Of a stretch of DNA of 64,000 nucleotides, positions 3,525 through 30,226 are shown piece by piece. Positions within the stretch are counted from its first letter, which is position 1, and each line of letters opens with the position of its first letter. This DNA is from a virus. Lineage: Duplodnaviria; Heunggongvirae; Uroviricota; Caudoviricetes. Location of the stretch: positions 31,358-95,357 of IMG/VR virus record IMGVR_UViG_3300032046_004423, one strand, 5' to 3'. The position numbers and the translations under genes were made by a program. The notes beneath the pieces are model-generated. The model had not been told where the DNA came from. It was given only the letters and a program-made list of their open reading frames with translations, and did no database searches.

Positions 3525-4286
3525 TTGATGGTAGTATCAATAGTAGCTGGGGCAGCAGCAGTAGCGATGGCTGAAGACAAGAATGAGGCAGTTGGGGAGG
3601 AAGTTAGGGAAGTCAGGAAGTCTGTAGTTCTACTATCTGGTGGTATAGACTCAACTGTTACTGCCTATCTAGCTAGAAGAGATACTGGCAAAAAAGGCAA
3701 GCTATATGCTGTATCTCTCGACTATGGACAGGCTCATAAAAAAGAGTTACTTTGTGCTAGTGATATAGGTGAGTTACTCGAGGTTGAAGGCCATCCCCTA
3801 TTCAAGATTCTTGGTATGGGATTACTAGGTAGTAGTCTAGTAGGCAAGGGAGAGATACCAACCGAGGAAACTAGGGGTATTCCTTCAACCTGGGTACCAC
3901 AAAGGAATAGTATCTTTTTAGCATTTGCATTTGCTTATGCGGAGACAATCGGTGCAGATAGAGTATATGTGGGAGTAAATAGTAGGGACTACAGTGGTTA
4001 TCCCGACTGTAGGCCTGAGTTTATCGAGGCTATGAACAAAGCTTTAAACCTAGCTAGTAAAAGGTATGTTGAGTCAGGTAAAGGTATAGGTATTATAGCC
4101 CCCCTACAGTATCTGAGCAAAACTGACATTATCAAGAAGGGTATTGAGTTAAAAGTTAACTTCTCAAAAACCTGGTCTTGCTATAGGGGTAGAGAATTAG
4201 CTTGCGGTAAGTGTCCTTCCTGCCTTATCAGGCTTGAGGCTTTTAGGAAGCTAGGAATGAGGGATCCTATAAGTTACGAACTATAG
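3525..4286 (+). CDS. queC: 7-cyano-7-deazaguanine synthase QueC
   Basis: PP-loop SGGIDS, VSLDYGQAHKKE, DYSGYPDCRPEF, TWSCY and the C-terminal zinc motif CGKCPSCLIR all align with E. coli QueC. Confidence 0.9.
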   Translation: MMVVSIVAGAAAVAMAEDKNEAVGEEVREVRKSVVLLSGGIDSTVTAYLARRDTGKKGKLYAVSLDYGQAHKKELLCASDIGELLEVEGHPLFKILGMGLLGSSLVGKGEIPTEETRGIPSTWVPQRNSIFLAFAFAYAETIGADRVYVGVNSRDYSGYPDCRPEFIEAMNKALNLASKRYVESGKGIGIIAPLQYLSKTDIIKKGIELKVNFSKTWSCYRGRELACGKCPSCLIRLEAFRKLGMRDPISYEL

Positions 4287-4461
4287 GAGGGAGTAGTGGA
4301 AGCAAAGGACACAGTAATGACAGATAAACAACTACAAAAAGTTCCAATAGATAATTACCGTAGTTTACATGACCAAAGAGAAGTAGCCAAAGCTCAGGCT
4401 GAAATCTCTTTCCCAGCTGGGGGAACAGACAGAAAAGGAACGTTGGATTAGGTTCTTCAAA

Positions 4462-4719
4462 ATGATGGGAGTGGAGATTGAACAACCCCAACAATTAAAA
4501 CGCATAATCCCTTGTCTAAAAGAAGGTTGTAAACAGGTGGGGATAAAGGAAGTGGTGGAGTTCATAAATCATTACCCCAATGAGGGTGGTGCAAAACTTA
4601 TAGATAAAAGAATAGTAGGAATATTCAAACCATTAATTCTTAGAGAAGAGTGGCAAGCCCAACTCAAAATCTGGTTTAGAAGTAACCCCAGTATACTAAA
4701 GGAACTTGGAATAACATAG
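4462..4719 (+). CDS. small protein, paralog of the next ORF (shared C-terminal WQAQLK.WF..P..LKE.GIT domain)
   Basis: C-termini EEWQAQLKIWFRSNPSILKELGIT and KCWQAQLKVWFKDSPELLKEWGIT. Confidence 0.4.
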   Translation: MMGVEIEQPQQLKRIIPCLKEGCKQVGIKEVVEFINHYPNEGGAKLIDKRIVGIFKPLILREEWQAQLKIWFRSNPSILKELGIT

Positions 4720-4734
4720 GATTGAAAGGAAGCA

Positions 4735-5085
4735 ATGGAAGATAAAGACACAATATCCAAGATTAGGCGTAAGTATTCTCAATTAGAAGGCAGGGAAGAG
4801 GCTCATTATGAGGAAATACTAGATGAAATTTTCAAGGCAGGGTATGAGAAAGCCTTGACTCATCTTGATGTGCTTAACGATGGCAAGAAGATAGGGAGGA
4901 TGGAAGTAGTGAAATGGAGCAATGAACCTTGCATATTACACGGAAATGCAGATGCACGAATACGGGAAGGCAAGGTGCTTCGTCAAGGTAATTGTTATAA
5001 ATGTTGGCAAGCCCAGTTAAAAGTCTGGTTCAAAGATAGTCCCGAATTGCTCAAGGAATGGGGAATAACAGATGAACAATTATAG
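4735..5085 (+). CDS. small protein, paralog of 4462..4719
   Basis: Same conserved C-terminal motif. Tandem duplication. Confidence 0.4.
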   Translation: MEDKDTISKIRRKYSQLEGREEAHYEEILDEIFKAGYEKALTHLDVLNDGKKIGRMEVVKWSNEPCILHGNADARIREGKVLRQGNCYKCWQAQLKVWFKDSPELLKEWGITDEQL

Positions 5086-6010: not shown

Positions 6011-6580
6011 ATGAATAGTGATAATTTATCCAACTACTGTTCCGGACTAGTAGCTGAACTTATGGCACTCTATCCTAGCTGGGATGGAGCAAAGCAGCTT
6101 AAAGGTACTCAAAACAGACTAGTTAGAATGTATAGTGACTTTTGCTGGACTCAGGAAAGAATTGAGGAAGAATTAAGTAGGCAGTTTAAGGTATTTGATA
6201 ATGGTTATGACGAGATGTTGGTAGTAAAAGACATTTGTGTTTGGACTCTATGTCCTCATCACTTACTACCTTGCCATCTTAAGGTTTTTATAGGATATAT
6301 CCCTGCTGGTAAAGTACTAGGTTTAAGTAAGTTTGCTAGGATTGCTGAAATACTATCTAAGAGGCCTACTATGCAAGAAGCTTACAGTACTGAGCTTGCT
6401 GATTTACTAATGGAAAAATTACAGCCTAGAGGTGTTGCAGTATATGTAGTAGGACAGCATGGTTGTATGACTGCTAGAGGAGTAAAACAGCACAGTGACG
6501 TAGTAACTTCAGTCATGAGAGGTAACTTCCTCAAAGAAGGACCTACCAGGGAAGAATTTTTTGCGGTATGTAGGAGCTGA
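6011..6580 (+). CDS. folE: GTP cyclohydrolase I (FolE)
   Basis: LCPHHLLP (CEHH-type motif), YIPAGKVLGLSKFARI and GQHGCMTARG align with FolE. Confidence 0.85.
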   Translation: MNSDNLSNYCSGLVAELMALYPSWDGAKQLKGTQNRLVRMYSDFCWTQERIEEELSRQFKVFDNGYDEMLVVKDICVWTLCPHHLLPCHLKVFIGYIPAGKVLGLSKFARIAEILSKRPTMQEAYSTELADLLMEKLQPRGVAVYVVGQHGCMTARGVKQHSDVVTSVMRGNFLKEGPTREEFFAVCRS

Positions 6581-6681: not shown

Positions 6682-7419
6682 ATGATATTAGCACTTGAGT
6701 GCCCAACTGAACTAGTAGATGAGATACAGCCTCTTGCAGACTTTGACTTTATTCTAGCACACGTTGTACTAAGGAGAGGTAGTTATGCTAGTTACTGTGA
6801 GAAGCCAGGAAGGATGAAGATTTTGGATAATAGTTGCAATGAACTACTCCATCCCTGCACCTTTAAAGAACTCAAGGAAGCTGCTGATATGGTAAAGCCT
6901 GATTATATAGTAGCTCCTGACTATTTGGGAGACTACTTTTCAACAGAGAGGGCTTTAGATGAAGCTATCACTATATTTGATAAGGAAAAAATCTTCCCGG
7001 TCATTCAGGGGCATGAGTTAAAGTATGCACTAGAATGTGCTGACTATATAGCTAGTAAAGGATTTGAAAAGATAGCTGTTCCTTATGATATTACTTCCTC
7101 TAGGGGTAGTAGTCTAGAATCTATGGCAAGTAAGAGGGTTAGAGTCGTTAGAGAGTTATTGCCCCGCTTCGAGTGGGTACACCTACTTGGAATGACTACT
7201 CTTGAGGAGTTAGAAAGCTATAAGAATAAAAAACAGGTAAAGTCAATAGATACAGGAAGTCCTATTTTGCACGGAATAAATGGAATTAGATTTGGTAGGG
7301 ATGAGTTACTTAATAAAAGTATACCTACCTGGAATTTGATGGAAGTTGCGCCTAGAATTAATCTAGCAGATATCTACTATAACATAGGGTATTTAAGGAA
7401 GATACTAAATGCTGACTAA
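6682..7419 (+). CDS. dpdA: minimal TGT-fold DNA transglycosylase (DpdA-like), candidate 7-deazaguanine inserter
   Basis: KILDNS (cf. TGT FTDSGGFQ), IVAPDY (the D156 region), FPVIQG (TGT GIVQGG), HLLGMTT (LMGVG) and KSIDTGSP (the FDCVMPTR Asp) appear in TGT order. 245 aa with no Zn subdomain. Confidence 0.5.
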   Translation: MILALECPTELVDEIQPLADFDFILAHVVLRRGSYASYCEKPGRMKILDNSCNELLHPCTFKELKEAADMVKPDYIVAPDYLGDYFSTERALDEAITIFDKEKIFPVIQGHELKYALECADYIASKGFEKIAVPYDITSSRGSSLESMASKRVRVVRELLPRFEWVHLLGMTTLEELESYKNKKQVKSIDTGSPILHGINGIRFGRDELLNKSIPTWNLMEVAPRINLADIYYNIGYLRKILNAD

Positions 7420-7953: not shown

Positions 7954-8266
7954 GCACGTAAGCATAAAGCAGTTTCTAATTAACTTGCTACATAAATCAC
8001 CTCTACTCATAGCACTTATAGTCCTTAGTTTTGCCTTAATTAAAATGGGTAATTCCCCAGAAGGACAGGCAAGTGCCTGGATTGCTAGCATAACCGATGT
8101 ACTTCCAATAGTATCATTTGTAGGAGTAATGATACTCTTACTTTCTTGCGTACCAGAAATGACAGTGGATGATAAGGAAGACGAAGAGCCTAGTAGGGGG
8201 CTTTATTATCGGATTGGCTCTGATGGTCTTAGGGATTTGGGAGTGAGTAAAATTGAAGCTAGATAG
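7937..8266 (+). CDS. 2-TM membrane protein, tandem paralog B
   Basis: Same architecture and motifs as 7711..7953. Confidence 0.4.
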   Translation: MNQLSKHVSIKQFLINLLHKSPLLIALIVLSFALIKMGNSPEGQASAWIASITDVLPIVSFVGVMILLLSCVPEMTVDDKEDEEPSRGLYYRIGSDGLRDLGVSKIEAR

Positions 8267-9191
8267 TGAACAGCAGGAAGTTGCTGACTACGACAATTCT
8301 TGTATAGTCGTAGCAGGGCCTGGTAGTGGAAAAACTAGGACATTGGTTGCTAAAGCTGAGAAGTTGTGGAATGAGGATAGGGATATTATATGCTTAACTT
8401 TTACTAGGGCAGCTGCAAGTGAAATGAGAGAAAGGATGCCCGGTATTAAAGCACAGACAATTCATTCTTACTGCCATGAGAATGTTGGGTGGGTAGGCAA
8501 CTATGATAAGATGATTTATGCCTTCCTAGATAAGCAAAATAAGATTAAGTATGAGTGGGTTCTACTTGATGAGTGCCAAGACTTAACCGACGAGGAGTTG
8601 GAAGTTGTCTTGTCAATTATGGGAGGTAAGATATTTGCAGTCGGGGACCCTTACCAGAGTATATATGGCTGGAACGGGGCACTTGGTTTGGGTGTATTTG
8701 AGGTATTGAAGGACTACAAAGTATTTAACCTAAGGAATAACTATAGAAGTCTACCAAAGGTAGTAAAGTGGTTAAATTCAGTATATAGTAGAGATTTAGT
8801 TAGCTCTGGTCTAGTTGAGAACGGTTTAACTGCAATCTTATGTAGGACAAATCGTGCTGTTTGGGAAGTAAGTCAAATCCTCGAGGAGAATAGTATCGGT
8901 TTTACGGTTAGGATTGGAGCAAGTGAGCTCAGTCCAACTAGAGAGGAGGACCATGGTAATGATAAGTTAAAAGTTATGACTTGCCATTGTAGTAAAGGTC
9001 TTGAGTTTGATAGTGTTTTACTATATAACTGGTTACCTCGCAACTTATATTGGTCTTGGTGTGCTAAGGATGATGAGGAGATACATTTATATTATACTGC
9101 TGTTGCTAGGGCGAGCAAAAATTTTTGTGAGGTTTGGTCACCTAGTAGTTTACTAAAAGCGTTGGGAGGTTTAAAAAATGGGATTGGTTGA
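8253..9191 (+). CDS. minimal UvrD/PcrA-like SF1 helicase (312 aa, lacking the 1B/2B inserts)
   Basis: Motif I AGPGSGKT, Ia TFTRAAASEMRER, II LLDECQD, III GDPYQSIYGWNGA, IV NYRS, V TCHCSKGLEFDSV, VI YYTAVARAS. Confidence 0.8.
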   Translation: MKLDSEQQEVADYDNSCIVVAGPGSGKTRTLVAKAEKLWNEDRDIICLTFTRAAASEMRERMPGIKAQTIHSYCHENVGWVGNYDKMIYAFLDKQNKIKYEWVLLDECQDLTDEELEVVLSIMGGKIFAVGDPYQSIYGWNGALGLGVFEVLKDYKVFNLRNNYRSLPKVVKWLNSVYSRDLVSSGLVENGLTAILCRTNRAVWEVSQILEENSIGFTVRIGASELSPTREEDHGNDKLKVMTCHCSKGLEFDSVLLYNWLPRNLYWSWCAKDDEEIHLYYTAVARASKNFCEVWSPSSLLKALGGLKNGIG

Positions 9192-9615
9192 CCTAGATAA
9201 AGAACTAGTTGATAAGATCAAGGGTTTGAAGTTGGAATTTAAAGATGAACCTCAACCTGAGTTGCTAATTAGATTACCCAATAGGGATAAGGATGTTGGG
9301 TACGAACTGGAAGTTAAGACTAGTGAGTTTACTTCTTTATGCCCCCTAAACTTAACTCAGCCTGATTACGCTACCCTAATTATTCGCTATAAACCAAAAG
9401 ATTGGATAGTTGAGTTAAAAAGTCTGAAGTTTTATCTCGTATCTTTTAGACAGGTACCTGTCTTTCATGAACAGGTTCCAGCTACAATACTTAAAGCTTT
9501 AGTAGACTTACTAGGCCCTAGAGAATTGATAGTAGCTGGACTATTTGCTGTTCGTGGTGGCCTAGCAACTACTATTAGTGCAGTATTTAAAGAGGAGGTT
9601 GAGGAAGGTGATTAG
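9178..9615 (+). CDS. queF: NADPH-dependent 7-cyano-7-deazaguanine reductase QueF (preQ0 to preQ1)
   Basis: EFTSLCPLNLTQPDYATL (catalytic Cys), the QueF motif ELKSLKFYL, and HEQ...GLFAVRGG align with B. subtilis QueF. Confidence 0.85.
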   Translation: MGLVDLDKELVDKIKGLKLEFKDEPQPELLIRLPNRDKDVGYELEVKTSEFTSLCPLNLTQPDYATLIIRYKPKDWIVELKSLKFYLVSFRQVPVFHEQVPATILKALVDLLGPRELIVAGLFAVRGGLATTISAVFKEEVEEGD

Positions 9616-17473: not shown

Positions 17474-17592
17474 AAAATGCTTGCCAGTACCCAAACTATA
17501 AAGATAATAAGGAATGGGCGAGGGTGGAATTCCCTAACCGAGTAGCAGGGTGAAGTAGGCTACCGTCTGGTAAGCTAAAAAAGAAAGAAAGA

Positions 17593-20341: not shown

Positions 20342-20983
20342 TTGGGGGATTTATGTATGAAAGAAATAACTGGGGATATTTGGGATTACTATAAGCAGGG
20401 ATATTGGATAGTAATTACTACCAATGGAACTGTGAAGAAAAATGGTGAAGCAGTAATGGGTAAGGGTATTGCTTTGCAGGCTAGGTTGCGATTTCCAGAA
20501 CTACCTCGTAGACTAGGAAGGCTGCTTGATATATATGGCAATATACCTAATATATTTCGTGACCTTCGGGTAATTTCTTTCCCTACTAAGTACCATTGGG
20601 CCTCACCGGCAGATATTGATCTAATAGAAGAAGGTTGCAAGAAGCTTGTGGAGGGACTTAAGCTACTTGGCCTAGATAGACTTTACTTGACCCGTCTAGG
20701 ATGTAGTAATGGTAGACTAGATTGGAAGGATGTCAAGCCAGTCCTTGAAAGATATTTAGATGATAGATTTATAGTAGTGGAGAAGTCTAGAGGAGGAGTA
20801 AGTAATGAAAGTAACTTAATTGGGTTTGAGAAAGTCTATAAAAGTAGTGGCTGTGGTGGTGGTTATTATGCTAACCACGCTGTAAAAAGTGGTATGGATA
20901 ACTCACACCTAAAGTTGGACTGTAAGGCTTGCTATGAGAATAAAACTGGTTGCTTTGCTATTATTACAAAGAAAGAGTCGTAA
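20342..20983 (+). CDS. Macro domain protein (ADP-ribose binding/hydrolase) with a Cys-rich C-terminal extension
   Basis: ITGDIWDY...WIVITTNGTVKKNGEAVMGKGIALQA fits the macro GDIT...IVNAAN...GGGV.GAI signature. RVISFPTKYHWASP fits the FPAISTG...P loop. Confidence 0.5.
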   Translation: MGDLCMKEITGDIWDYYKQGYWIVITTNGTVKKNGEAVMGKGIALQARLRFPELPRRLGRLLDIYGNIPNIFRDLRVISFPTKYHWASPADIDLIEEGCKKLVEGLKLLGLDRLYLTRLGCSNGRLDWKDVKPVLERYLDDRFIVVEKSRGGVSNESNLIGFEKVYKSSGCGGGYYANHAVKSGMDNSHLKLDCKACYENKTGCFAIITKKES

Positions 20984-21010
20984 ACGGGAGTAAGTAAAGG
21001 GGAGGTATTT

Positions 21011-21547
21011 ATGAAAAGGTTTCTTAAAAAGGGTTATGGGATGATGGCTAGTATAGTATCGGTTATACTAGTCCTATGTCTAGTTAGTGGAATTGGTCTA
21101 GTTTCTGCTCAAGGTACCCTCTTCTTGTCTGGAACAATCAACGTGCAGATAGTGCCGCGGCCTCAGGCTTTAGAGGTTGAGTATCTAAGCCCAAGTAATA
21201 ACAGCTGGGTGAATGATACTGTCAATTCAACCTACACTGTAAGTGGTACTAATTGGACTTCGTTTGAAAATAGCACTCCTATAAATCTAACAGGTCTCTA
21301 CACATATAGCACATTTAATATACCTTTTAAAGTAACTAGTAGTGGCTACACAGTAGATAAGATAGTAAGTTTAAGCACTGCTAGCCTATGTATCGATTTT
21401 GCTACTATTAGTGTAAACAGTACCTGGATAAATACAACAGGAGTATCTATACCAGCAAATGGGACTCCTATAACAAACTATGTTATTATCACTACCTATG
21501 GCTGGTCAGGCAATTGTTCAATAATATTGAACTGGAAAGTACTATAG
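21011..21547 (+). CDS. secreted protein rich in NxS/T sequons
   Basis: Signal peptide ...LVSAQG, and at least 10 N-x-S/T sequons in 150 aa. Confidence 0.5.
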   Translation: MKRFLKKGYGMMASIVSVILVLCLVSGIGLVSAQGTLFLSGTINVQIVPRPQALEVEYLSPSNNSWVNDTVNSTYTVSGTNWTSFENSTPINLTGLYTYSTFNIPFKVTSSGYTVDKIVSLSTASLCIDFATISVNSTWINTTGVSIPANGTPITNYVIITTYGWSGNCSIILNWKVL

Positions 21548-21601
21548 GAGTATACTTACTACTCTTAGGCTGGTGGAAATAGTTCGAGAGGAAGGTGAAG
21601 T

Positions 21602-22237
21602 ATGATAGGTCCATTAGATGAAAAGCCTCAAGACAAAGAGACTCCTGATGAAATTCCTTTAGGAGAGGAGTCTTCTGAGGAAGAGCCTTCTGGGGAGGAA
21701 GGCGACGAAGAACTAACCCCTGAGGAGTTAGCTGCCAGGGAAAGACTAGCAAAAGAAAAGCCTTTTGAGGGAGCAGAGGAAGAAAAACCAGTTAAGAAAA
21801 AGTGGCACTTCCCCAAGGGTATAGGGTTGATTGCACTCATTATGCTCCTAGTAATAGGTGGTGTAGTTGCTGCTAGCAGTCTTCTCCTTAGGCACGGAAC
21901 AGCTCCAATAGTAGTGCAGGAGGCTATAGATGTAGAGTATCAGTATCCTAGTCAAAGTTGGTCTAAGTTTAGTAATGGGACAGTGCTAAGTATTGCTAGT
22001 GTTTTTCCAGGGGACAGCGTAACCATACCTTTTAAGATTACCAACTATAGTACTACAAGCTGGACTGTAAGACTTGATACTATAAATCCTAGCAGTATTA
22101 CTGTTACAGGTAGCTGGCTCGGTGCAGGACTCTTAGTCCAAGGTAGCCAAATAGTAACAAGTAATATAGTTATAACAGTAGAAAAAAGTGCTACTGCAGG
22201 AATAGCTACTGTAGAGCTAGATTGGTATAGAGTCTAA
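21602..22237 (+). CDS. membrane-anchored surface protein (acidic N-terminus, one TM, Ig-like sequon-rich ectodomain)
   Basis: E/P/S-rich N-terminus, TM GIGLIALIMLLVIGGVVAASSLLL, then a beta-rich domain with NGT, NYS and NPS. Confidence 0.5.
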   Translation: MIGPLDEKPQDKETPDEIPLGEESSEEEPSGEEGDEELTPEELAARERLAKEKPFEGAEEEKPVKKKWHFPKGIGLIALIMLLVIGGVVAASSLLLRHGTAPIVVQEAIDVEYQYPSQSWSKFSNGTVLSIASVFPGDSVTIPFKITNYSTTSWTVRLDTINPSSITVTGSWLGAGLLVQGSQIVTSNIVITVEKSATAGIATVELDWYRV

Positions 22238-22500
22238 AGATGAAGAGTGGAAGTTACGTATCCAATCGAGCTAGGTGTAAAGAGCTAGCTGACTGGTTGC
22301 AAGCCAAAGACTTGCATAGCGTCAGTGATGAAGATATGGATTTACTAGATTACTTCTTAGCTAAAATAACTGATGGCCTACCAATTCTTACACCAGAATC
22401 TCTCTCTATCTATGGTTCTGCTTCCTATATGGTAGGCTATAAGAAGGGCTATGAGGTTAAAGGCCTGGAAGTTCTAGTAAGTAAATAGTAAAATTCTATG

Positions 22501-22587
22501 ATGCTTGGGAGCAAGATGTAGTAGACCCTTTGCGTGTCATGGGTGCCTCCAGGTTAACCTCCTTAGAGTCATCTTGCTCCCAAGTAT
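22501..22587 (+). promoter_or_regulatory. 19-bp-stem hairpin immediately after a CDS stop (terminator or RNA operator)
   Basis: atgcttgggagcaagatg (22501-22518) pairs with catcttgctcccaagtat (22570-22587), including one G.U. The loop is 51 nt. No T-run follows. Confidence 0.35.
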
Positions 22588-23551
22588 TATAGAAATACAA
22601 AGGAGGTAAGAATGAGCAAAAAGATATCAGGCTATGAGAGCAAATAGGAGGAGAGAGGAGGTGACTATTTGAAATGATTAACGAAGAGAGAATAAAGTTG
22701 ACTTCCAAAGGATATGCTTACACACGAAGTAAGCATCGGATTCAATATCCTTATTACTTGCTCAAATATTGGCGACTAATGCTCGAAGCGAAGCTAAAGG
22801 ATTTTAGAAGGAGGTAAAAATGTTCATAGCCGTAGAAGGTGGTAATTACTGGAGTGCAGAGGAAAAGTTTGTAAAGGAGTTCAGAGATGAAGTGAAGTCT
22901 AGAGGTAGTAGCCTATCGCTTGTGAAAAACCCTGAGGAGTTCCTTGAGTATATGTCATCTGAGCACACGTATGTTAATTTCCTATTTGCCGAAGGTATTC
23001 TATCCTTGATAGATTGTAGGTCTTCGATGGCAAAGGAGAATAGGGATGCAGCATATTGGTTCAGTGAGCACCGGAAAGTTGAGAATGAGCACGTTGTCCT
23101 GAGTGACATCTTTGAGGTGCCCTTTATTGACCTAAGGATAAGAAGGCTGATAACTCACAGAATACGTGTGCTTGATGCCAAAGGCGATGTACGCTACAGA
23201 GTTGTGAGTTTGCACATCGGACGAGTTGTAGTAGGCAAGTTAGGTGAGGGAACCATTCTGGAAGCAATTAAGGAGTCTGATAGACCCCTTACTCCTGAGG
23301 AGATTGAACAGCAAAATAAAGCCTATGAGCAGGCAGTGGTAGATGACGAATGAAAAGAATAGTTAGATTTTGCTTCAACTACTTTTACTGGATAAGCTAG
23401 ATTGCCTTGCTGCTCGTAATAGCAATAGCTGTACCTTATTCTCTGCGGGATACTGTTACCCACTGGTGGCATTTCTCTCTAGTTTTTATTGGCATCTTTA
23501 TTGCTGTTCTAGGTATTGGAATCGGCTTTTATGCACTAAGAGATTGGACTT

Positions 23552-23905
23552 TTGAGGATGATAACAATGAAAGCAACAGTAGTAAAAAGAATTAGTTTTG
23601 ATGCAGCTCACTTCCTACCAGATTACCCTGGTAAGTGCAAGAATCTCCACGGGCATCACTTTGTGGTTGAAGTGGGAGTTTCCGGAGGAGTAGAGGAAGA
23701 TGGTATGGTCATTGACTTTGGGCAGTTAAAGGAGTTTTTACAGCCTATTATAGATAAATTTGACCACCACCTGATAAATGACACAATTAAGAACCCAACT
23801 GCAGAGAATATTGCTATTTACATTAAAGATAGGTTAGGGGTAGATAAAAAGATAGAGTTCATCCGTGTATGGGAGACGGAAGATTCTTATGCGGAGGTAA
23901 GATAA
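23552..23905 (+). CDS. queD: 6-carboxy-5,6,7,8-tetrahydropterin synthase QueD
   Basis: RISFDAAHFLPDYPGKCKNLHGHHF (Cx5HGH zinc site), IDFGQLKE and DHHLIND align with E. coli QueD. Confidence 0.85.
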   Translation: MRMITMKATVVKRISFDAAHFLPDYPGKCKNLHGHHFVVEVGVSGGVEEDGMVIDFGQLKEFLQPIIDKFDHHLINDTIKNPTAENIAIYIKDRLGVDKKIEFIRVWETEDSYAEVR

Positions 23906-24713: not shown

Positions 24714-26561
24714 ATGAAGATTAGTCTAGCTGAGCTCCCTTTTTACAGTATCCAAGGAGAAGGTGTATACCAAGGAATACCGACTACCTTTGTAAGACTA
24801 CAGGGGTGTAATCTACTAACTCACTGCAGCTGGTGTCTGGTTGATGGTTTAGTTACATATTCTAATAAAGTAGGCAGTGATATTAGTAGGGTTAAGATAG
24901 GTGATAGATTATTAGCTTGCAGCAACCAGGATGAGGTTACAGAAACTGTAGTAACTCAAGTTTTTTCTAGAGAAGTTGAGAACTATTTACTACTAGTCCT
25001 CCCGGAGGGTAGTTCTAGATTTGACCGGGAAAGGTTACTGAGAGTAACTCCCGAGCACCCCGTTATGACTACTCATAGCTGGAAGAGGGCAGAGGAATTA
25101 GTTCCAGGAGATGAGTTATACTATTTATCTGTAGCTCATCAGAATTCAGTAAGAATGACTCTTCACAATCCTCTGTTTAATCCCGAAGTAGTTTCTAAAA
25201 AAATGAGGTCAACTAACTATGAAGAGATAGGCAGGAAGATTTCTAAAGCTAGACTAGCTTTCACTCCAGAGGAGTGGGATGAGATAAATGAGAAAATGCT
25301 AAGCTCTAGAATGGGAGATAGTCCGGAAGCCTCACTCAAGAGGTTTGAGAGTGATACACTGGAATGGAAGCAAGCAAGGGATAGTTTATTTGAGAAGTTT
25401 AAGCAGAGAAAGCATAAGCTGGAACGCTTAGTGGATTGGAGGAAGTTAGCTGGTATGCAGGAAGGGTTATACGATAGTAGTGGAAGAAGGGTATTCTCAG
25501 AAGAGCATAAAAGGGCAATCTCAGAGGTTAAGAGTGAGAATCCTACTAGGCTCTTCGGTAGTGACAATCCGAACTGGCAAGGAGGAATTTCCTCCTATAG
25601 TAGGTGGACATCCAGATTGGAGAGAGAGGCAGTTTATGAAATCCTAACTGGGAGGGATGGGGAGATATGCCAAGCTGAAAGCTGTAATAATAAAACTGAC
25701 TTAGTTATTCACCATGAGGATTTTGATATAACCAATGACTCTGATAATAACTTAGTACTACTCTGCAGGTCTTGTAACAGTTCGGTTAATCATGGAAGAT
25801 ACCCTCTTAAACTAAAGTCCGGGAAAGTTTGCCCTATTCTAGCCGTGAAGAATGGACTACCGATAGTAGAGATTAGGAAAATTAGCAAAAAGGTGAGGGT
25901 ATATAACCTGCATTGCGAGCCTTATAATAACTACTTCGTTAATGGTATCCTATGCCACAACTGTGATACTGCTTACGCCCAAAATGGTAGTAAAGGTATC
26001 TTAATGGAAGTAGAAGATGTGCTCAGTCAGTGTGCTAAGCTAGAGGGAAGGACGTTTAAGCACTGGGTATGTATTACTGGTGGGGAGCCTCTATTTCAGC
26101 CTGAGGCTCTCCATGAGCTAGTTAAAGGACTAAGAAGGTATGGATTCAGAGTTGAGATAGAAACAAACGGAACCATTTCTAAACCCTATTGGTGGACTCT
26201 AGCTAACTGTTGGGTAGTAGACATTAAATGTCCCAGTTCTGGAGTATGTGGAGCTAGTTTGGTTGAGTGGTTTAACTCAAGGGTAGATGACCAGATAAAA
26301 TTTGTTGTTGGTAGCAAAGAAGATTTAAACTTCGCTAAAGCTATGATTATGAAGAATATAGCTAGAAATCCAGTAGTTCTAGTTAGCCCAGTTATTATAC
26401 TTGGAAAATCCACCAAAATACTAACTATTGATAGCCAGGAGTACCAAGACCAGTTTGGAATGTTGTGGATGCAGGAAGTAGTTGAATTTTGTAAAGAATT
26501 AAAGGTAAGATTTAGTTTGCAAGTACATAAAGTTGTATACGGTAACAAAAAGGGAGTATAG
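24714..26561 (+). CDS. queE: 7-carboxy-7-deazaguanine synthase QueE (radical SAM) interrupted by an intein
   Basis: Exteins [30 protein letters not shown] + CDTAYAQ...WVCITGGEP...VVYGNKKGV align with B. subtilis QueE (GCDYSCSWCDSAF...LLWGNKRGV). The spliced product would be about 239 aa. Confidence 0.85.
   Translation: [615 protein letters not shown]
24834..25961 (+). mobile_element. Intein (376 aa) with an HNH homing-endonuclease domain, inserted before the third cluster-ligand Cys of QueE
   Basis: Starts with C (CLVDGLVTY, block A). Block B is [10 protein letters not shown]. The HNH motif is [29 protein letters not shown]. It ends NGILCHN followed by +1 Cys (CDT). Confidence 0.75.
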
Positions 26562-26591: not shown

Positions 26592-27029
26592 ATGGATATT
26601 TTCTTTTGGACTAGGCATGATGAGCATGGTTACTGCTCCAACTTTTATGGGTCTCCTATTGAGGTAAATGGGAAAACTTATCCTACCGTTGAGCATTTCT
26701 ACCAAGCAAGTAAAACTCTAGTTCCCGAGGAGAAAGAGATGATTAAAAACCTACCTACTCCAAAGGAGGCAAAGTTTGCTGGATATCATGTAACCCTTAG
26801 ACCTTACTGGGATGATATTAAGTACAACATAATGCTAGTAGGCTTGAGAGCAAAATTTACTCAGCATGAGGACTTAAGGATGAAGCTACTCAGTACTGGT
26901 AGTTCTATACTGCACGAGAATAGCCCCTGGGATATATACTGGGGTTATGCAAAAGGGAAAGGATTGGATATGCTTGGTAAAGCCCTAATGCAGGTAAGAT
27001 ATGAATTACAGGAAAGAGGGAAGATATAA
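26592..27029 (+). CDS. NADAR domain protein (YbiA-like N-glycosidase / guanine ADP-ribose hydrolase family)
   Basis: FFWTRHDEHGYCSNFYGSPIEVNGKTYPTVEHFYQASK ... LRAKFTQHEDLRMKLLSTG ... SPWDIYWGYA matches the NADAR/DUF1768 pattern. Confidence 0.7.
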   Translation: MDIFFWTRHDEHGYCSNFYGSPIEVNGKTYPTVEHFYQASKTLVPEEKEMIKNLPTPKEAKFAGYHVTLRPYWDDIKYNIMLVGLRAKFTQHEDLRMKLLSTGSSILHENSPWDIYWGYAKGKGLDMLGKALMQVRYELQERGKI

Positions 27030-27351: not shown

Positions 27352-27750
27352 ATGGAAAGGAGTTATAATATGAGTCAGGATTGGTACCAAGACATAGTTG
27401 ATTTTCATAATGAGGTTATGGGTGATAGTTTCCCTCCACACCCCCGTGCTGCTCCTTTTAACTATAGTAACTTGAGATATAATTTAATTAAAGAGGAGAT
27501 GGGGGAAGTCCTTAGGGCAATACTACAAAATGATGTAGTAGGGGTAGCAGATGGTATAGCTGACTCAATTGTAGTTCTGCTTGGTACTGCTGTAACTTAT
27601 GGGATTGATATACGACCAGTATGGGATGAAGTACATAGAACCAATATGGCTAAAAAGGGTGGTAAGTTAAGAGAGGACGGTAAGATGCTAAAACAAAAAG
27701 GTTGGGAGTCACCTGACGTAATAGGAATATTAAGGAGGCAAGGTCTATGA
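27352..27750 (+). CDS. MazG-like all-alpha NTP pyrophosphohydrolase
   Basis: LIKEEMGEVLRAI and GVADGIADSIVVLLG are the EExGE and D..D metal-binding helices. Confidence 0.45.
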   Translation: MERSYNMSQDWYQDIVDFHNEVMGDSFPPHPRAAPFNYSNLRYNLIKEEMGEVLRAILQNDVVGVADGIADSIVVLLGTAVTYGIDIRPVWDEVHRTNMAKKGGKLREDGKMLKQKGWESPDVIGILRRQGL

Positions 27751-27955: not shown

Positions 27956-28495
27956 GTGAGACTGAAGTTTTTCCCCAATATGAAGCTAACCATTGAGCCG
28001 ATTCCAGAAAGTACTTGGGGAGTTAGTTTAGCTAACTTATTACCTCCCCCGGTTTGGAATGACCTAAGAAAGGAAGTCTATGAGGGGTTTAACTACGCCT
28101 GTGCTATCTGTAAGTCAGCTGATAAGCAGTTACATTGCCACGAGAGATGGGGCTTTGATGATAAAGCAAGAATACAAAGATTACTAGGTTTCCAGTGTTT
28201 ATGTGTTGACTGCCATAACATAAAGCACTGGGGAAGAACAGTAGCAGAGGCACATCGTAATGGGGATTCCGAAATCCTTATAAGGTTGACTAAGCACTTC
28301 TGTAATGTAAACGGTTGTACCACCTCTGCTTTCACACTCTATAAAGTTGAGATTGGTAACATAATGCAGAAGAGAAACAGGTACAAGTATAAGGTAGATT
28401 TTGGTAAGTTTAGACCAGATTTAGTTGAGGAGATTTGGAAACGGCAGAGAAGGACTAAGACACATGGAAAAGAAGAGTCGCCCCAAGATTACTAG
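27956..28495 (+). CDS. HNH endonuclease
   Basis: CAICKS...LHCHERWGFDDKARIQRLLGFQCLCVDCHNIKH is an HNH core with two CxxC pairs. Confidence 0.55.
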   Translation: MRLKFFPNMKLTIEPIPESTWGVSLANLLPPPVWNDLRKEVYEGFNYACAICKSADKQLHCHERWGFDDKARIQRLLGFQCLCVDCHNIKHWGRTVAEAHRNGDSEILIRLTKHFCNVNGCTTSAFTLYKVEIGNIMQKRNRYKYKVDFGKFRPDLVEEIWKRQRRTKTHGKEESPQDY

Positions 28496-28832
28496 AGGAG
28501 AGACTCATAGAGTTACCACTGGATGTGGTGGACTATATATTACTCCTTGCTGGGATCCGGATGATGGGGCTCTAGTCGAAGTATTTGCTGTACTTGGTAG
28601 GACTGGTGGCTGTGCCCACTGCCAGTTAGAAGCTATAACTAGAGCAGTCTCATTAGGATTAAAATACGGTATTCCGGTTAGTGAATACACTGATGAGCTA
28701 AGAGGCCTAAGATGCCCCAAATCAGCATGGGAAAGTGGTGAGCATATACTGAGTTGCCCGGATGCAATAGCGAAAATATTGGAAAAGACAAAAGGGGGAC
28801 GGGATGCAAGTAGGGATAATAGTACCCATTAA
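28464..28832 (+). CDS. stand-alone TSCPD domain protein
   Basis: TTGCGGLYITPCWD...GGCAHCQLEAITRAVSL...RCPKSAWESGEHILSCPDAIAKIL includes the eponymous SCPD motif. The start was chosen at the internal MEKKSR. Confidence 0.5.
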   Translation: MEKKSRPKITRGETHRVTTGCGGLYITPCWDPDDGALVEVFAVLGRTGGCAHCQLEAITRAVSLGLKYGIPVSEYTDELRGLRCPKSAWESGEHILSCPDAIAKILEKTKGGRDASRDNSTH

Positions 28833-29490
28833 GTATCTTAATCTTAGTACTACAAAACTACATTTATGCTATACTACTTTGCTCTCAAACAAGACTTATC
28901 TCAACTTTTATAAAGATAGGGAAGGAACCGTTATACTTGACTATTCCCCAGGACTACCAAGGAGGCCAGACTTAGATAAGCTACTAGTTAGTATCAAGCT
29001 GATAAAACCATCCCTAGTAGTCCTTCCCAGTATTGACTACTCATCCAATAGGACAATATCCTTAGCTGGAGATTTTATAAGGCTAAGCAAGTTCAAAAAG
29101 TTAATTGGTGTAGTACAAGGATTAGACTTGGACACTCTTAATGAGTGCTATAGTTTTCTAAGAAATCATTGTGGTATTATCGGTTTGCCCAGCCCACTGG
29201 AAACTATTGCTAGACGAGATGAGATTATAAGAGACTTAGGAATCAAAGAGAAGATACTCTACTTAGAAGTTTATTCTAATCCTTATGAGGAGATACCCCC
29301 ACCTAACTCGTTTGGCATTTGCACATCCTTTCCAGCTAGGCTAGCAGCTGACCTAAGGAAGTTAACTGAATATACTCCTACACCATCCTCGCTGGATTTT
29401 TATAAGGATAGTCTGGTAGAAAAACTAGTTAAAGCCAATATAGAAGGATATTTAGATGTAGTTAAGTATAGCTGCGGAGCAAAGGGCTAA
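28804..29490 (+). CDS. second minimal TGT/DpdA-like paralog (possibly lacking the nucleophile Asp)
   Basis: It aligns with the 6682 ORF: VILDYSPG, VVLPSIDY, IGVVQG, GIIGLPSP. At the position of KSIDTGSP it has NSFGICTSFP with no Asp. Confidence 0.4.
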   Translation: MQVGIIVPIKYLNLSTTKLHLCYTTLLSNKTYLNFYKDREGTVILDYSPGLPRRPDLDKLLVSIKLIKPSLVVLPSIDYSSNRTISLAGDFIRLSKFKKLIGVVQGLDLDTLNECYSFLRNHCGIIGLPSPLETIARRDEIIRDLGIKEKILYLEVYSNPYEEIPPPNSFGICTSFPARLAADLRKLTEYTPTPSSLDFYKDSLVEKLVKANIEGYLDVVKYSCGAKG

Positions 29491-29512
29491 GGAAGGTAAA
29501 GGAGTAACTATA

Positions 29513-30226
29513 ATGATAAGTAAAAGTTTATGTCTATGCAGCGGTGGCCTAGACTCATCCCTGGTCCTACTTAAACTTTTAGAATCTAACCTTGAGGTTA
29601 CACCTTTCTATGTTGACTATAATCATTGGTCTACTGAGGGAGAGCTATCTACACTAAAGGATTTCATTTCTTGGATTAGACAACATAAACTAAGTAGGAG
29701 TCATCTAGTTAATGGTAGCCTCGCCGACCTGGTAATAGTAAAAGCAGACTTAGGTCTGCGTATTGGTGGAGTTTGGGGTAGGAGTATAGCTCTTGTTGGT
29801 CTTGCTTCTATGTGGGCATTTACTCATGGTAATGACTATAGTTATATAGCTATGGGTAGTCATAAGGGAGATATATGTCCTGACTGTAGGCCTGGTCTTT
29901 TTGATATGGAGTTAGATGCAGTCCTTAAAGAGGCTACTGAAAGTAAACTTAGTCTGTTTCTACCAATTAGAAATTATTCCATTGAGGAGATAGGAGTAGA
30001 ACTTTTAGGTGGTAAGTATGAAGTACCATACGAATTAGCATATAGTTGTTACTGGTATCCACCATGTGGTTATAAAAGCAAGAATGAAACTTATAGATGC
30101 CCAGGATGTAGAAGAAAAGTAATAGCAATGAAAGCAGCTAGTATAGAAGACCCTGCTAAGCTAGATTTACCCAACTGTAAGGAAAGATCTTACTATCCCG
30201 GGAGTGCAGAAAGGACGGTTTACTAG
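29513..30226 (+). CDS. QueC-like PP-loop ATPase paralog
   Basis: LCSGGLDSS, HKGDICPDCRPGLFD (cf. DYSGYPDCR), AYSCYW (cf. TWSCY) and CPGCRRK (cf. CGxCxxC). It diverges from the 3525 QueC. Confidence 0.6.
   Translation: MISKSLCLCSGGLDSSLVLLKLLESNLEVTPFYVDYNHWSTEGELSTLKDFISWIRQHKLSRSHLVNGSLADLVIVKADLGLRIGGVWGRSIALVGLASMWAFTHGNDYSYIAMGSHKGDICPDCRPGLFDMELDAVLKEATESKLSLFLPIRNYSIEEIGVELLGGKYEVPYELAYSCYWYPPCGYKSKNETYRCPGCRRKVIAMKAASIEDPAKLDLPNCKERSYYPGSAERTVY

What the first reader, a model, noticed from the sequence alone, without database searches (positions are those of the whole stretch)
3525..30226. Expanded, dispersed 7-deazaguanine DNA-modification gene set with duplicated transglycosylases and QueC
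FolE, QueD, QueE, QueC and QueF are all present, which is sufficient to make preQ0 and preQ1 from GTP.

Two minimal TGT-fold (DpdA-like) proteins are also present (6682..7419 and 28804..29490), and a second divergent QueC paralog (29513..30226) lies directly downstream of the second one.

This layout is what one expects for a virus that replaces guanine in its DNA with a 7-deazaguanine derivative. QueF argues for preQ1-level or further derivatised bases. The duplicated DpdA/QueC pair suggests either two different bases (for example an amide ADG-type product from the variant QueC) or two sequence contexts.

The genes are scattered over 27 kb among unrelated small ORFs rather than in one operon.
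Basis: partly seen in the sequence, partly recalled or inferred. Interest (0 to 1): 0.75.

Follow-up and report, generated by a model that had tools for sequence, protein, structure and literature searches.

The report
Phage 7-deazaguanine genes with remodelled paralogues
An uncultured virus carries the full gene set to swap guanine in its DNA for a 7-deazaguanine base, which is a known kind of system, but it also carries conserved extra copies of three pathway enzymes whose catalytic motifs are lost or changed and whose function is unknown.

Summary
QueC, FolE, QueF, QueD and QueE are all present at the stated coordinates with strong HMM support. Both "TGT-like" ORFs fold as TIM barrels whose best solved match is the DNA transglycosylase DpdA.

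ORF 6682-7419 is a DpdA3-family enzyme with all three catalytic aspartates. With a NADPH-type QueF, the set matches Flavobacterium phage immuto, minus its formyltransferase, so dPreQ1-level replacement of G is the expected outcome.

ORF 28804-29490 ("TGT2") is not a plain duplicate. It belongs to a DpdA3-derived clade (about 90 clusters at 50% identity) that has lost the nucleophile Asp and gained Glu/Asp next to the base-stacking Leu. It sits in a conserved orf179-TSCPD-TGT2-PolA block.

The second QueC ("QueC2") lacks three canonical QueC motifs. It occurs in 0-3 copies, only in QueF-positive relatives, and usually right after QueF. Its position next to TGT2 is specific to this window and its closest relative.

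A third paralogue was missed: a conserved QueE-like protein (13165-13692) without the Fe-S motif. QueE itself carries an intein.

Verdict: a known kind of system with new, uncharacterised paralogues.

The parts
3525..4286 (+). QueC1, canonical 7-cyano-7-deazaguanine synthase. The true start may lie about 14-30 codons downstream of the TTG.
   Evidence: PF06508 E 2e-64 and TIGR00364 188 bits, above the 150.3 cut-off. The motifs SGGIDS, YGQAHKKE, VPQRN, YPDC and SCY...CGKCPSC are all present (motif definitions from PMC13329287).
6011..6580 (+). FolE, GTP cyclohydrolase I
   Evidence: PF01227 E 4e-46.
6682..7419 (+). DpdA3-family DNA guanine transglycosylase: a minimal TIM barrel without a Zn subdomain
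8253..9191 (+). Minimal UvrD-like SF1 ATPase (312 aa), a candidate motor for DNA base exchange
   Evidence: PF00580 E 2e-26 and PF13361. It lies next to DpdA3 and QueF in L001 and L012, is nearby in L006 and L033, and lies next to TSCPD-TGT2 in L007. Its role is inferred by analogy with the DpdB ATPase requirement (PMC10164549).
9178..9615 (+). QueF, unimodular NADPH-dependent preQ0 reductase
   Evidence: TIGR03139 115.6 bits, above the 86.9 cut-off. The sequence shows EFTSLCP (catalytic Cys), the ELKSLKFY NADPH motif and FHE (motif from PMC10516641).
13165..13692 (+). QueE-like paralogue (175 aa) lacking the radical-SAM Cys loop and the GGEP motif; a presumed pseudoenzyme
   Evidence: The alignment with QueE shows a clean deletion of QGCNLLTHCSWCDTAYAQ, and GGEP is replaced by GEST. 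The protein is 41-73% identical in the relatives L001, L003, L005, L006, L007, L009, L012, L031 and L032, always in addition to a true QueE wherever the region is covered.
23552..23905 (+). QueD, 6-carboxytetrahydropterin synthase. It has the CxxxHGH motif, so it is not the DpdL decarboxylase variant.
   Evidence: TIGR03367 104 bits, above the 89 cut-off. The CKNLHGHHF motif is in the sequence. The DpdL signature LxxxHRHxF comes from PMC10516641.
24714..26561 (+). QueE, a radical-SAM CDG synthase interrupted by an intein
   Evidence: QueE models at E 2e-33 to 3e-24. Also Intein_splicing, PT-HINT, intein_Cterm and an HNH-like stretch. The spliced extein is 239 aa and aligns end to end with the intein-free QueE of relatives.
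24834..25961 (+). Intein (aa 41-416, CLVDG...ILCHN|C) inserted inside the CNLLTHCSW|CDT Fe-S cluster motif
   Evidence: for the boundaries; for the Hint/HNH hits. It is absent from QueE in L001, L003 and L006.
27352..27750 (+). MazG/PRA-PH-like NTP pyrophosphohydrolase, syntenic with the module
   Evidence: PF01503 E 1e-11. It is conserved upstream of orf179-TSCPD-TGT2 in L001, L011, L012, L025 and L027, and sits between QueF and QueC2 in L006 and L033.
27956..28495 (+). orf179, a Cys/His-rich protein of unknown function and the first gene of the conserved block
   Evidence: No Pfam or PADLOC hit. It is 47-77% identical and lies upstream of TSCPD-TGT2, mostly directly, in more than 20 loci.
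28425..28832 (+). Stand-alone TSCPD-domain protein, overlapping the TGT2 start
   Evidence: PF12637 E 6e-19. It is conserved immediately upstream of TGT2.
28804..29490 (+). TGT2, a DpdA3-derived TIM-barrel paralogue with a remodelled active site (no nucleophile Asp)
29513..30226 (+). QueC2, a divergent QueC-family PP-loop ATPase
   Evidence: PF06508 52.9 bits, but TIGR00364 only 31.7 bits against a 150.3 cut-off. 24% identical to QueC1. The family consensus keeps SGGLDS, the Arg of VPxRN, PDC and SCY. It changes YxQxHxxE, loses Tyr131 and has a distinct CY..W.PPCGYKS..YRCPGCRRK zinc motif.
33937..36270 (+). Family A DNA polymerase with an N-terminal UDG-like domain. It is the gene that directly follows TGT2 in most relatives.
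   Evidence: PF00476 E 3e-60, plus PF03167 and PF01612. Synteny.

Best explanation
The window is the replication and nucleotide-metabolism arm of an uncultured tailed virus that replaces guanine in its own DNA with a 7-deazaguanine base.

Core pathway (assigned by homology, with the catalytic motifs read directly in the sequences):
1. FolE, QueD and QueE (after its intein splices out) convert GTP to CDG.
2. QueC1 converts CDG to preQ0.
3. The NADPH-type QueF reduces preQ0 to preQ1.

Inferred from family behaviour: the DpdA3-type transglycosylase (6682-7419) exchanges G in double-stranded phage DNA for the deazapurine after replication, probably to a high level. The adjacent minimal UvrD-like ATPase may help. 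No DpdN, DpdM or DpdL homologue was found, so the default product is dPreQ1.

Three extra paralogues are superimposed on this core. They are conserved in the lineage but have altered catalytic motifs.
- QueE-like (175 aa): it lacks the Fe-S loop and cannot be a radical-SAM enzyme.
- TGT2: it keeps what looks like a purine-binding pocket (D78, Q105-G106, E133, stacking L154) but lacks the covalent nucleophile. I favour an accessory subunit that binds 7-deazaguanine or DNA and works with DpdA3 at the replication module, by analogy with QTRT2 and QTRT1. An enzyme with a relocated carboxylate (E155) is the close second.
- QueC2: it keeps the ATP-binding loop and part of the deazapurine-binding residues, and it is genomically tied to QueF. 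I infer that it is an ATP-dependent tailoring ligase of the preQ1 branch, not a second preQ0 synthase.
For: Core pathway:
- HMM scores exceed the curated cut-offs for QueC1, QueF and QueD, and E-values are very low for FolE and QueE.

DpdA3 membership of ORF 6682-7419:
- (E 5.6e-44 to immuto DpdA3).
- The Asp triad is intact.

Comparison with a characterised phage:
- Immuto phage has the same gene set (DpdA3, FolE, QueD, QueE, QueC, QueF) plus DpdN, and its G is fully replaced by fdPreQ1 (PMC10516641).
- No DpdN homologue is in the window.

TGT2:
- Homologous to DpdA3.
- Position 173 is never Asp in about 90 family clusters, whereas the weaker DpdA3-type hits have Asp there. Position 155 is Glu/Asp in TGT2 and Gly in DpdA3.
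- The orf179-TSCPD-TGT2-PolA synteny holds in about 25 loci.
- TGT2 co-occurs with a DpdA3-like gene on every sufficiently long contig: the window, L001, L006, L012, L031 and L033 directly, and L003 and L007 by matching contig lengths.
- The DpdA3-like family is acidic (median pI 5.2) and TGT2 is near neutral (median 7.1; window protein 8.7).

QueC2:
- Motif divergence.
- It is always additional to a canonical QueC and has 1-3 copies.
- All six QueC2-bearing loci have QueF. It lies directly after QueF (L031, L034), after QueF-MazG (L006, L033), or within 1 kb (L005).
- It is absent from the two QueF-negative relatives.

QueE-like.
Against: - No chemistry was measured. The identity and level of the modified base are inferred.
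- DpdA3 substrate specificity is not established, even in the literature, and heterologous tests of DpdA3 failed (PMC10516641).
- L032 and the isolated DpdA3 phages lack TGT2, so DpdA3 does not need it.
- The many invariant polar residues of TGT2 (R53, D78, E133, R138, E155, E163, T174, S175) fit an enzyme as well as a binding subunit.
- The equivalence of E155 with the Gly of HLLG rests on hhalign and the secondary-structure register, not on superposed coordinates.
- The QueC2-QueF link rests on 6 loci. Two QueF-positive relatives (L001, L012) show no QueC2 in the sequenced region.
- In this window QueC2 lies 20 kb from QueF.
Confidence: 0.7

Rival explanations
1. There are two active DNA transglycosylases, each with its own QueC. 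They install two different 7-deazaguanine bases (for example dPreQ1 and an amide or ADG-type base) or act in two sequence contexts.
For: - Both proteins have the TGT/DpdA fold.
- TGT2 and QueC2 are adjacent with a 22-nt gap here. In the closest relative they share one 3,653-bp contig, judged by matching contig lengths.
- QueC2 keeps the PP-loop, the Arg, the PDC motif and a Zn site, so an amide product is chemically plausible.
Against: - The nucleophile Asp is absent and that position is variable throughout the TGT2 family.
- TGT2 has no adjacent QueC in about 25 other loci.
- QueC2 tracks QueF, not TGT2.
- TGT2 is present in a relative that has neither QueF nor QueC2.
Confidence: 0.12
2. TGT2 is a catalytically active glycosylase or transglycosylase whose catalytic carboxylate has moved from strand beta-8 (Asp) to the end of beta-7 (E155). 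It acts on a different substrate, for example single-stranded or replicating DNA, or nucleotides. That would fit its translational coupling to PolA.
For: - E155 (or Asp) is nearly universal in the family, whereas DpdA3 has Gly there. It directly follows L154, the counterpart of the base-stacking L236 of Salmonella DpdA.
- D46, the general acid/base position, is kept in most members.
- Many polar residues are invariant.
- The gene overlaps PolA in L001.
Against: - D46 is Glu, Gly or Asn in some members.
- A few family members have Gly at position 155 and also lack Asp173.
- There is no structural superposition or biochemistry.
Confidence: 0.3
3. The remodelled paralogues (TGT2, QueC2, QueE-like) are anti-defence decoys or mimics. 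They would target host systems built from the same folds, such as type IV CBASS Cap9/Cap10 deazaguanylation or QatC, rather than taking part in DNA modification.
For: - Host defence systems repurpose QueC and TGT folds for protein deazaguanylation (10.1101/2025.04.06.647259 and PMC13329287).
- Loss of catalytic residues is typical of mimics.
Against: - Cap10 scores below DpdA, TGT and QTRT2.
- The PADLOC Cap9-type QueC model fits QueC1 better than QueC2, and no PADLOC model hits TGT2.
- There is strict synteny with replication and deazaguanine genes, and no CD-NTase or Qat genes are nearby.
Confidence: 0.05
4. The pathway serves host tRNA queuosine metabolism or a small-molecule product, not viral DNA modification.
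For: The FolE-QueD-QueE-QueC-QueF pathway is the bacterial preQ1 pathway. No DNA chemistry was measured.
Against: - The transglycosylase is of the DpdA3 type, found in phages with fully substituted DNA, and is not a bacterial TGT (PMC10516641).
- Both TGT-fold proteins lack the Zn subdomain of tRNA-dependent TGTs.
- The module is embedded among replication genes.
Confidence: 0.04

Closest known systems
[quoted passage not shown] 2023, PMC10516641)
   Same: It has the same enzyme set, including a DpdA3-type transglycosylase and QueF. The genes are likewise interspersed with small ORFs on one strand and lie near a family A DNA polymerase.
   Different: - The window has no DpdN formyltransferase.
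- The proteins are only 27-31% identical.
- Immuto lacks TGT2 and QueC2 at BLAST sensitivity across the phage collection. A QueE-like paralogue was not searched for there.
- QueF here is unimodular, whereas immuto's is 306 aa.
DpdA3 of Campylobacter phage CP220 (dADG) and Cellulophaga phage phiST (dDG)
   Same: A minimal TIM barrel of about 250 aa without a Zn domain and with a conserved Asp triad. phiST M4SLA5 is the best viral structural match even for TGT2.
   Different: Those phages stop at CDG and lack QueC and QueF (PMC10516641). The window runs through to preQ1 and adds a second, nucleophile-less paralogue.
Eukaryotic TGT heterodimer QTRT1/QTRT2 (a catalytic subunit plus a non-catalytic paralogue)
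   Different: This would be an independent origin, since TGT2 derives from DpdA3. There is no Zn subdomain. Heterodimer formation is untested. TGT2 is dispensable in some relatives.
Type IV CBASS Cap9 (QueC-like) and Cap10 (TGT-like), and QatC: protein deazaguanylation
   Same: A QueC-family ATPase occurs with a remodelled TGT-fold protein. The chemistry is carboxylate adenylation followed by attack of an amine other than ammonia.
   Different: - There is no CD-NTase, QatA, QatB or QatD nearby.
- Cap10 is a weaker structural match than DpdA.
- QueC2 has neither the QatC motifs nor the truncated Cap9 architecture.
- QueC2 and TGT2 are not a conserved pair.
Bacterial Dpd system (DpdA + DpdB ATPase + DpdC; Salmonella DpdA structure 7ui4)
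   Same: It is the best solved structural match for both barrels. It shares the catalytic Asp triad with ORF 6682-7419. An ATPase partner is needed for insertion into dsDNA.
   Different: Bacterial DpdA is 400+ aa with insertions. It inserts preQ0 at less than 0.1% of G and belongs to a restriction-modification island. There is no DpdB or DpdC here. The candidate ATPase is a UvrD-like SF1 protein.
Gat-QueC, ArcS and QueF-L routes to dG+ in phages such as 9g
   Same: They are an example of a QueC-family variant used for a product other than preQ0. Weak tblastn hits of QueC2 include Bacillus phage Gat-QueC.
   Different: QueC2 has no glutamine amidotransferase domain. The identity is only about 29% over half the protein. 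QueF here has the NADPH motif, so it is not QueF-L.

Membership tests
DpdA3 (phage DNA guanine transglycosylase subfamily) | Sequence homology to the founding members (phiST CGPG_00065, the Campylobacter CP220 group, immuto DpdA) | tested here: met
   ORF 6682-7419: tblastn E 1e-12 to 3e-14 over 86-93% of the protein. The family HMM against immuto DpdA3 gives E 5.6e-44. PHROG 19058 E 8e-13.
DpdA3 (phage DNA guanine transglycosylase subfamily) | TGT/DpdA TIM-barrel fold | tested here: met
DpdA3 (phage DNA guanine transglycosylase subfamily) | The three active-site Asp residues invariant in TGT and DpdA (general acid/base, base recognition, nucleophile) | tested here: met
   ORF 6682-7419: D49 (LDNS), D80 (APD) and D190 (SIDTG) are invariant or nearly so in 49 homologues. 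D190 aligns with D256 of Salmonella DpdA.
DpdA3 (phage DNA guanine transglycosylase subfamily) | Base-exchange activity on DNA, with complete G replacement | not testable with these tools
   This needs LC-MS/MS of virion DNA or heterologous expression.
DpdA/TGT catalytic transglycosylase, applied to TGT2 (28804-29490) | Nucleophile Asp at the end of beta-8 | tested here: not met
   Position 173 is C/Y/F/V/I/L/A/W/G/T/M in essentially all strong family members. The DpdA3-type weak hits carry Asp there.
DpdA/TGT catalytic transglycosylase, applied to TGT2 (28804-29490) | Base-recognition Asp (D130 of DpdA) | tested here: inconclusive
   The aligned position is S76. An invariant D78 lies two residues later. 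Without coordinates the spatial equivalence cannot be decided.
DpdA/TGT catalytic transglycosylase, applied to TGT2 (28804-29490) | TGT-type TIM-barrel fold and homology | tested here: met
Canonical QueC (PF06508 cluster 1 / TIGR00364), applied to QueC2 (29513-30226) | SGGxDS PP-loop | tested here: met
   CSGGLDSS in the window protein; SGGLDS is conserved in more than 90% of the family.
Canonical QueC (PF06508 cluster 1 / TIGR00364), applied to QueC2 (29513-30226) | YxQxHxxE, VPxRN and YPDC motifs (Y35, R99 and Y131 are essential in E. coli QueC; PMC13329287) | tested here: not met
   The window protein has YNHWSTEGE, VWGRS and CPDC. The family consensus is DYxQW..E.E, W..GR and gPDC. Only the Arg and the DC are kept.
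Canonical QueC (PF06508 cluster 1 / TIGR00364), applied to QueC2 (29513-30226) | Equivalog-level HMM score | tested here: not met
   TIGR00364 gives 31.7 bits against a cut-off of 150.3. QueC1 scores 188.3.
Canonical QueC (PF06508 cluster 1 / TIGR00364), applied to QueC2 (29513-30226) | C(x)8CxxCxxC zinc motif with the essential Tyr after the first Cys | tested here: inconclusive
   Four Cys and the SCY Tyr are present, but the spacing is C-x5-C-x10-C-x2-C with a family-specific insertion (PPCGYKS..YRCPGCRRK).
Type IV CBASS Cap9/Cap10 or Qat (QatC) | Operon partners: a CD-NTase, or QatA/QatB/QatD | tested here: not met
   No such domains were found among the window ORFs scanned or among the called genes of related loci. 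PADLOC gives only a generic QueC hit, weaker for QueC2 than for QueC1, and nothing for TGT2.
QueF (NADPH-dependent preQ0 reductase, unimodular) | Catalytic Cys and the E(S/L)K(S/A)hK(L/Y)(Y/F/W) NADPH motif. This distinguishes it from QueF-L. | tested here: met
   EFTSLCP and ELKSLKFY are in the sequence. TIGR03139 gives 115.6 bits, above the 86.9 cut-off. The motif is from PMC10516641.
QueE (radical-SAM CDG synthase), applied to the 175-aa paralogue 13165-13692 | Cys motif binding the [4Fe-4S] cluster, and the GGEP SAM motif | tested here: not met
   The loop carrying all three Cys is deleted and GGEP is replaced by GEST. The same holds in four relatives.

The most novel reading that the evidence does not exclude
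This virus lineage runs a second, undescribed branch of 7-deazaguanine chemistry built from remodelled paralogues.
- QueC2 would be an ATP-dependent ligase genomically coupled to QueF and amplified to three tandem copies in some relatives. It would make one or more new preQ1- or CDG-derived hypermodified bases, for instance N-acylated or N-substituted amide derivatives.
- TGT2 would be a TGT-fold protein with a relocated catalytic carboxylate or a QTRT2-like partner role. It would act with the polymerase to install or read the base.
- The Fe-S-less QueE-like protein would serve as a pterin- or deazapurine-binding subunit.

If so, this would be the first viral example of pseudoenzyme partners in a DNA-hypermodification pathway.
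Probability: 0.2. Interest if true: 0.85.

Novelty: new variant of a known kind. Interest (0 to 1): 0.6.

Why it matters
Phage 7-deazaguanine DNA modifications defeat restriction enzymes and are a source of new nucleic-acid chemistry. Eight derivatives and five DpdA subfamilies are known.

The core system here adds a distant new member, which is unsurprising.

What matters is that a whole metagenomic lineage keeps three extra paralogues with altered catalytic motifs:
- a DpdA3-like protein without its nucleophile;
- a QueC-like protein without three canonical motifs, tied to QueF;
- a QueE-like protein without its Fe-S cluster.

None of these was found in the searchable literature. They could be tailoring enzymes for unknown bases. 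They could be non-catalytic partners that explain how DpdA3 reaches complete substitution, given that DpdA3 has so far failed in heterologous tests. Or they could be examples of catalytic-residue migration in a TIM barrel. Each possibility can be tested directly with cloned genes.

Tried and rejected
- Megablast of 8.5 kb and 7 kb of the region against 50,697 phage records found no match. The virus has no close cultured relative.
- tblastn of TGT2 against phages found no match.
- Pfam, NCBIfam and PADLOC found nothing for TGT2.
- A profile search of the PDB sequences with the TGT2 family found nothing meaningful.
- A look-up of the exact TGT2 protein on its source contig returned nothing on record.
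- An IMG/VR scan with the TGT2 profile returned only one locus.
- A DpdN (formyltransferase) search by tblastn with the immuto protein gave E 0.74, so it is absent.
- DpdL was rejected because QueD has CxxxHGH.
- No protein scanned against Pfam or PHROGs matched a DpdM-type (DUF3109/YkgJ) family. Many ORFs under 100 aa were not scanned.
- The Cap9/Cap10 or Qat reading was considered and rejected for lack of partner genes and weaker matches.
- DpdA4 (PF20314) was considered. Neither barrel hits it in Pfam.
- Rfam found no family in the window, and there are no tRNAs.
- A literature search for further DpdA subfamilies or DpdA3 paralogues returned nothing beyond Cui et al. 2023.
- I could not obtain model coordinates, so the spatial position of E155 and D78 relative to the DpdA active site was not checked.

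Full report
WHAT IS THERE

The first 38.9 kb of the window is a single co-directional block of + strand genes with positive GC skew; the remainder is on the - strand. It has no near relative among 50,697 deposited phage genomes.

- QueC, 3525-4286: PF06508 E 2e-64; TIGR00364 188 bits, cut-off 150.
- FolE, 6011-6580: E 4e-46.
- QueF, 9178-9615: unimodular; TIGR03139 116 bits, cut-off 87.
- QueD, 23552-23905: TIGR03367 104 bits, cut-off 89.
- QueE, 24714-26561.
- A second QueC-family protein, 29513-30226: PF06508 52.9 bits.

The QueF sequence has the catalytic Cys (EFTSLCP) and the NADPH motif ELKSLKFY. That motif separates true reductases from QueF-L (motif from PMC10516641). QueD has CxxxHGH, so it is not the DpdL variant.

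QueE is 615 aa because a 376-aa Hint/HNH intein (aa 41-416) sits inside the Fe-S cluster motif, at CNLLTHCSW|C...HN|CDT. The spliced extein is 239 aa and aligns end to end with the intein-free QueE of relatives.

THE TWO TGT-LIKE ORFS

ORF 6682-7419 is a DpdA3.
- It matches the CP220-group Campylobacter phage proteins and the annotated DNA guanine transglycosylase of Flavobacterium phage immuto at E 1e-12 to 3e-14.
- A profile of its 49 metagenomic homologues hits immuto DpdA3 at E 5.6e-44.
- The residues that correspond to the Salmonella DpdA general acid/base D95, base-recognition D130 and H181-G182, stacking L236 and nucleophile D256 are D49, D80, Q109-G110, L169 (in HLLG) and D190 (in SIDTG). 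All are invariant or nearly so.

ORF 28804-29490 (TGT2) is a distant paralogue of that family.
- hhalign of the two family profiles gives 98.9% probability, E 3e-17, over the full length.
- The TGT2 profile hits immuto DpdA3 at E 5.6e-10.
- Its best viral structural match is the Cellulophaga phiST protein M4SLA5 (E 7e-12, TM 0.81). At 259 aa, this is probably the founding DpdA3.

TGT2's active site is remodelled. An exhaustive profile search found 48 representatives at E<=1e-30 and 105 at E<=1e-10. I aligned the best 150 together with the first 38 homologues and read the key columns.
- Essentially every strong hit, about 90 clusters at 50% identity, has a non-acidic and variable residue (C/Y/F/V/I/L/A/W) at position 173, which is the nucleophile position.
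- Those hits have Glu or Asp at position 155.
- The weak hits, which are DpdA3-type proteins, have Asp at 173, Asp at 76 and Gly at 155.
- Position 155 directly follows L154, the counterpart of the base-stacking Leu.
- D46 (the acid/base position) is kept in most members, and Q105-G106, D78, E133, R53, R138, E163, T174 and S175 are conserved.

TGT2 therefore looks as if it still has a purine-type pocket, but it cannot use the canonical covalent Asp.

GENOMIC CONTEXT

About 30 related loci were fetched. TGT2 lies in a fixed block, orf179-TSCPD-TGT2-PolA. It often overlaps both neighbours. Every locus with enough downstream sequence shows the polymerase next, sometimes after one or two small ORFs. 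None of these loci has a QueC-family gene beside TGT2. The only likely exception is the closest relative, where matching contig lengths suggest both genes share a 3.6-kb contig.

TGT2 co-occurs with a DpdA3-like gene on every long contig examined. However, a more distant relative (L032) has DpdA3, QueC, QueD and QueE and the TSCPD-PolA junction without TGT2. The isolated DpdA3 phages also lack TGT2. DpdA3 therefore does not strictly need it.

The DpdA3-like family is acidic (median pI 5.2) and TGT2 is near neutral (median 7.1; window protein 8.7). This is weakly compatible with a nucleic-acid-binding partner role.

THE SECOND QueC (QueC2)

QueC2 is 24% identical to QueC1 and scores far below the equivalog cut-off (31.7 against 150.3 bits). 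I compared it with the experimentally defined QueC signature of SGGxDS, YxQxHxxE, VPxRN, YPDC and C(x)8CxxCxxC (PMC13329287).
- The QueC2 family of 59 homologues keeps the PP-loop, the essential Arg, the PDC and the SCY.
- It changes the YxQxHxxE motif.
- It loses Tyr131.
- It has its own zinc motif and a C-terminal tail.
- It has no close relative in cultured phages.

QueC2 is always additional to a canonical QueC, and its copy number varies:
- one copy in the window, L005, L031 and L034;
- two copies in L033;
- three tandem copies in L006;
- none in L001 and L012 between QueF and PolA;
- none in the two QueF-negative relatives.

In L031 and L034 it abuts or overlaps the end of QueF. In L006 and L033 it follows QueF-MazG. 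In L005 it lies 1 kb downstream of QueF. Its position after TGT2 in this window is the exception. The "DpdA/QueC pair" is therefore not a conserved module. The conserved association is QueF-QueC2.

A THIRD PARALOGUE

ORF 13165-13692 (175 aa) is a QueE paralogue in which the loop carrying the three cluster cysteines is cleanly deleted and GGEP is replaced by GEST. It is conserved at 41-73% identity in the relatives, in addition to a true QueE wherever the region is covered, in the synteny RNase H - QueE-like - YqaJ-like - QueD. It cannot be a radical-SAM enzyme.

MECHANISM

Shown by homology and motifs: a complete route from GTP to preQ1 and a catalytically competent DpdA3.

Inferred from characterised DpdA3 phages: these show complete G replacement in CP220, phiST and immuto, and immuto with the same gene set plus DpdN carries fdPreQ1 (PMC10516641). 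By analogy, this virus is expected to replace G post-replicatively with a preQ1-level base at high occupancy.
- No DpdN, DpdM or DpdL was found, so dPreQ1 is the default product.
- A minimal UvrD-like ATPase (8253-9191) lies next to DpdA3 and QueF in L001 and L012, and next to TSCPD-TGT2 in L007. It may play the role that the DpdB ATPase plays for bacterial DpdA. This is inference only.

For TGT2 I give about 0.4 to a non-catalytic, ligand- or DNA-binding partner of DpdA3, analogous to QTRT2. I give about 0.3 to an enzyme with a relocated carboxylate (E155). The remainder goes to other roles.

For QueC2 I infer an ATP-dependent ligase that tailors the preQ1 branch. The family chemistry is carboxylate adenylation followed by attack of an amine. 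Cap9 and QatC show that the amine need not be ammonia. The nature of the product is unknown.

COMPARISON AND NOVELTY

The core is a new, distant member of the known DpdA3-type phage deazaguanine systems. The dispersed gene layout is ordinary, as immuto shows the same. Relative to L001, the window simply carries an insertion of about 8.7 kb between the YqaJ-like gene and QueD, and a second one between TGT2 and PolA.

The three remodelled paralogues are not described in the literature I could search. I rate the finding as a new variant of a known kind, with interest 0.6.

Noticed in passing
window 24834-25961 (+): A 376-aa intein with Hint and HNH-like regions is inserted inside the [4Fe-4S]-binding motif of QueE (CNLLTHCSW|CLVDG...ILCHN|CDTAYAQ). 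The QueE genes of relatives (L001, L003, L006) have no intein.
   Followed up: yes
window 17172-18048 (+), upstream of 18049-19350: An ORF-poor gap of about 880 nt precedes a TROVE/vWA (Ro60-like) gene. It holds three tandem stem-loop modules (17174-17238, 17395-17476, 17594-17666) that share a 5' arm GGnTAGTGAAGA and a 3' arm CTTGTTCTyCCA. Their folding z-scores are -2.0 to -3.6. There is no Rfam match. They are candidate Y-RNA-like partners of a viral Ro60 orthologue. The exact motif is not found in the fetched relatives, although L032 encodes a TROVE homologue that is 55% identical.
   Followed up: partly
window 26592-27029 (+): A stand-alone NADAR-domain protein (PF08719, E 6e-32) lies directly after QueE. 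From my own knowledge, not checked here, NADAR proteins reverse guanine ADP-ribosylation, so this could be a counter-defence gene.
   Followed up: no
window 8253-9191 (+); L001 1578-2486; L007 8771-9673: A minimal UvrD-like SF1 ATPase of about 310 aa is repeatedly adjacent to DpdA3 and QueF, or to TSCPD-TGT2. It is a candidate motor for base exchange in dsDNA.
   Followed up: partly
L006 8943-11770; L033 8967-10693: Tandem arrays of three (L006) or two (L033) QueC2-family paralogues sit downstream of QueF-MazG, in addition to a canonical QueC elsewhere on the same contig.
   Followed up: partly
window 33937-36270 and 37247-38917 (+): Two DNA polymerases lie in one module: a family A polymerase with an N-terminal UDG-like domain, and a PF03175 (DNA_pol_B_2, 'organellar and viral' type) family B polymerase. 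Both are conserved in relatives.
   Followed up: no
L034 1990-7180: In one relative, the genes directly upstream of QueC1 are a B12-binding radical-SAM protein, a DegT-type aminotransferase, a GT4 glycosyltransferase and a UDP-glucose dehydrogenase-like protein. This may be a sugar-modification cassette next to the deazaguanine module.
   Followed up: no
window 50433-51851 (-): A 472-aa protein combines a GtrB-like glycosyltransferase N-terminal part with a methyltransferase-like C-terminal part (PHROG 841 E 1e-24; PHROG 4752 and 22502).
   Followed up: no
window 14851-23353 and 29513-33900 (+): Relative to L001, the window has an insertion of about 8.7 kb of small ORFs, including the TROVE gene, between the YqaJ-like gene and QueD. 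It has a second insertion (QueC2, small ORFs and a 664-aa Band_7/SPFH protein) between TGT2 and PolA.
   Followed up: partly
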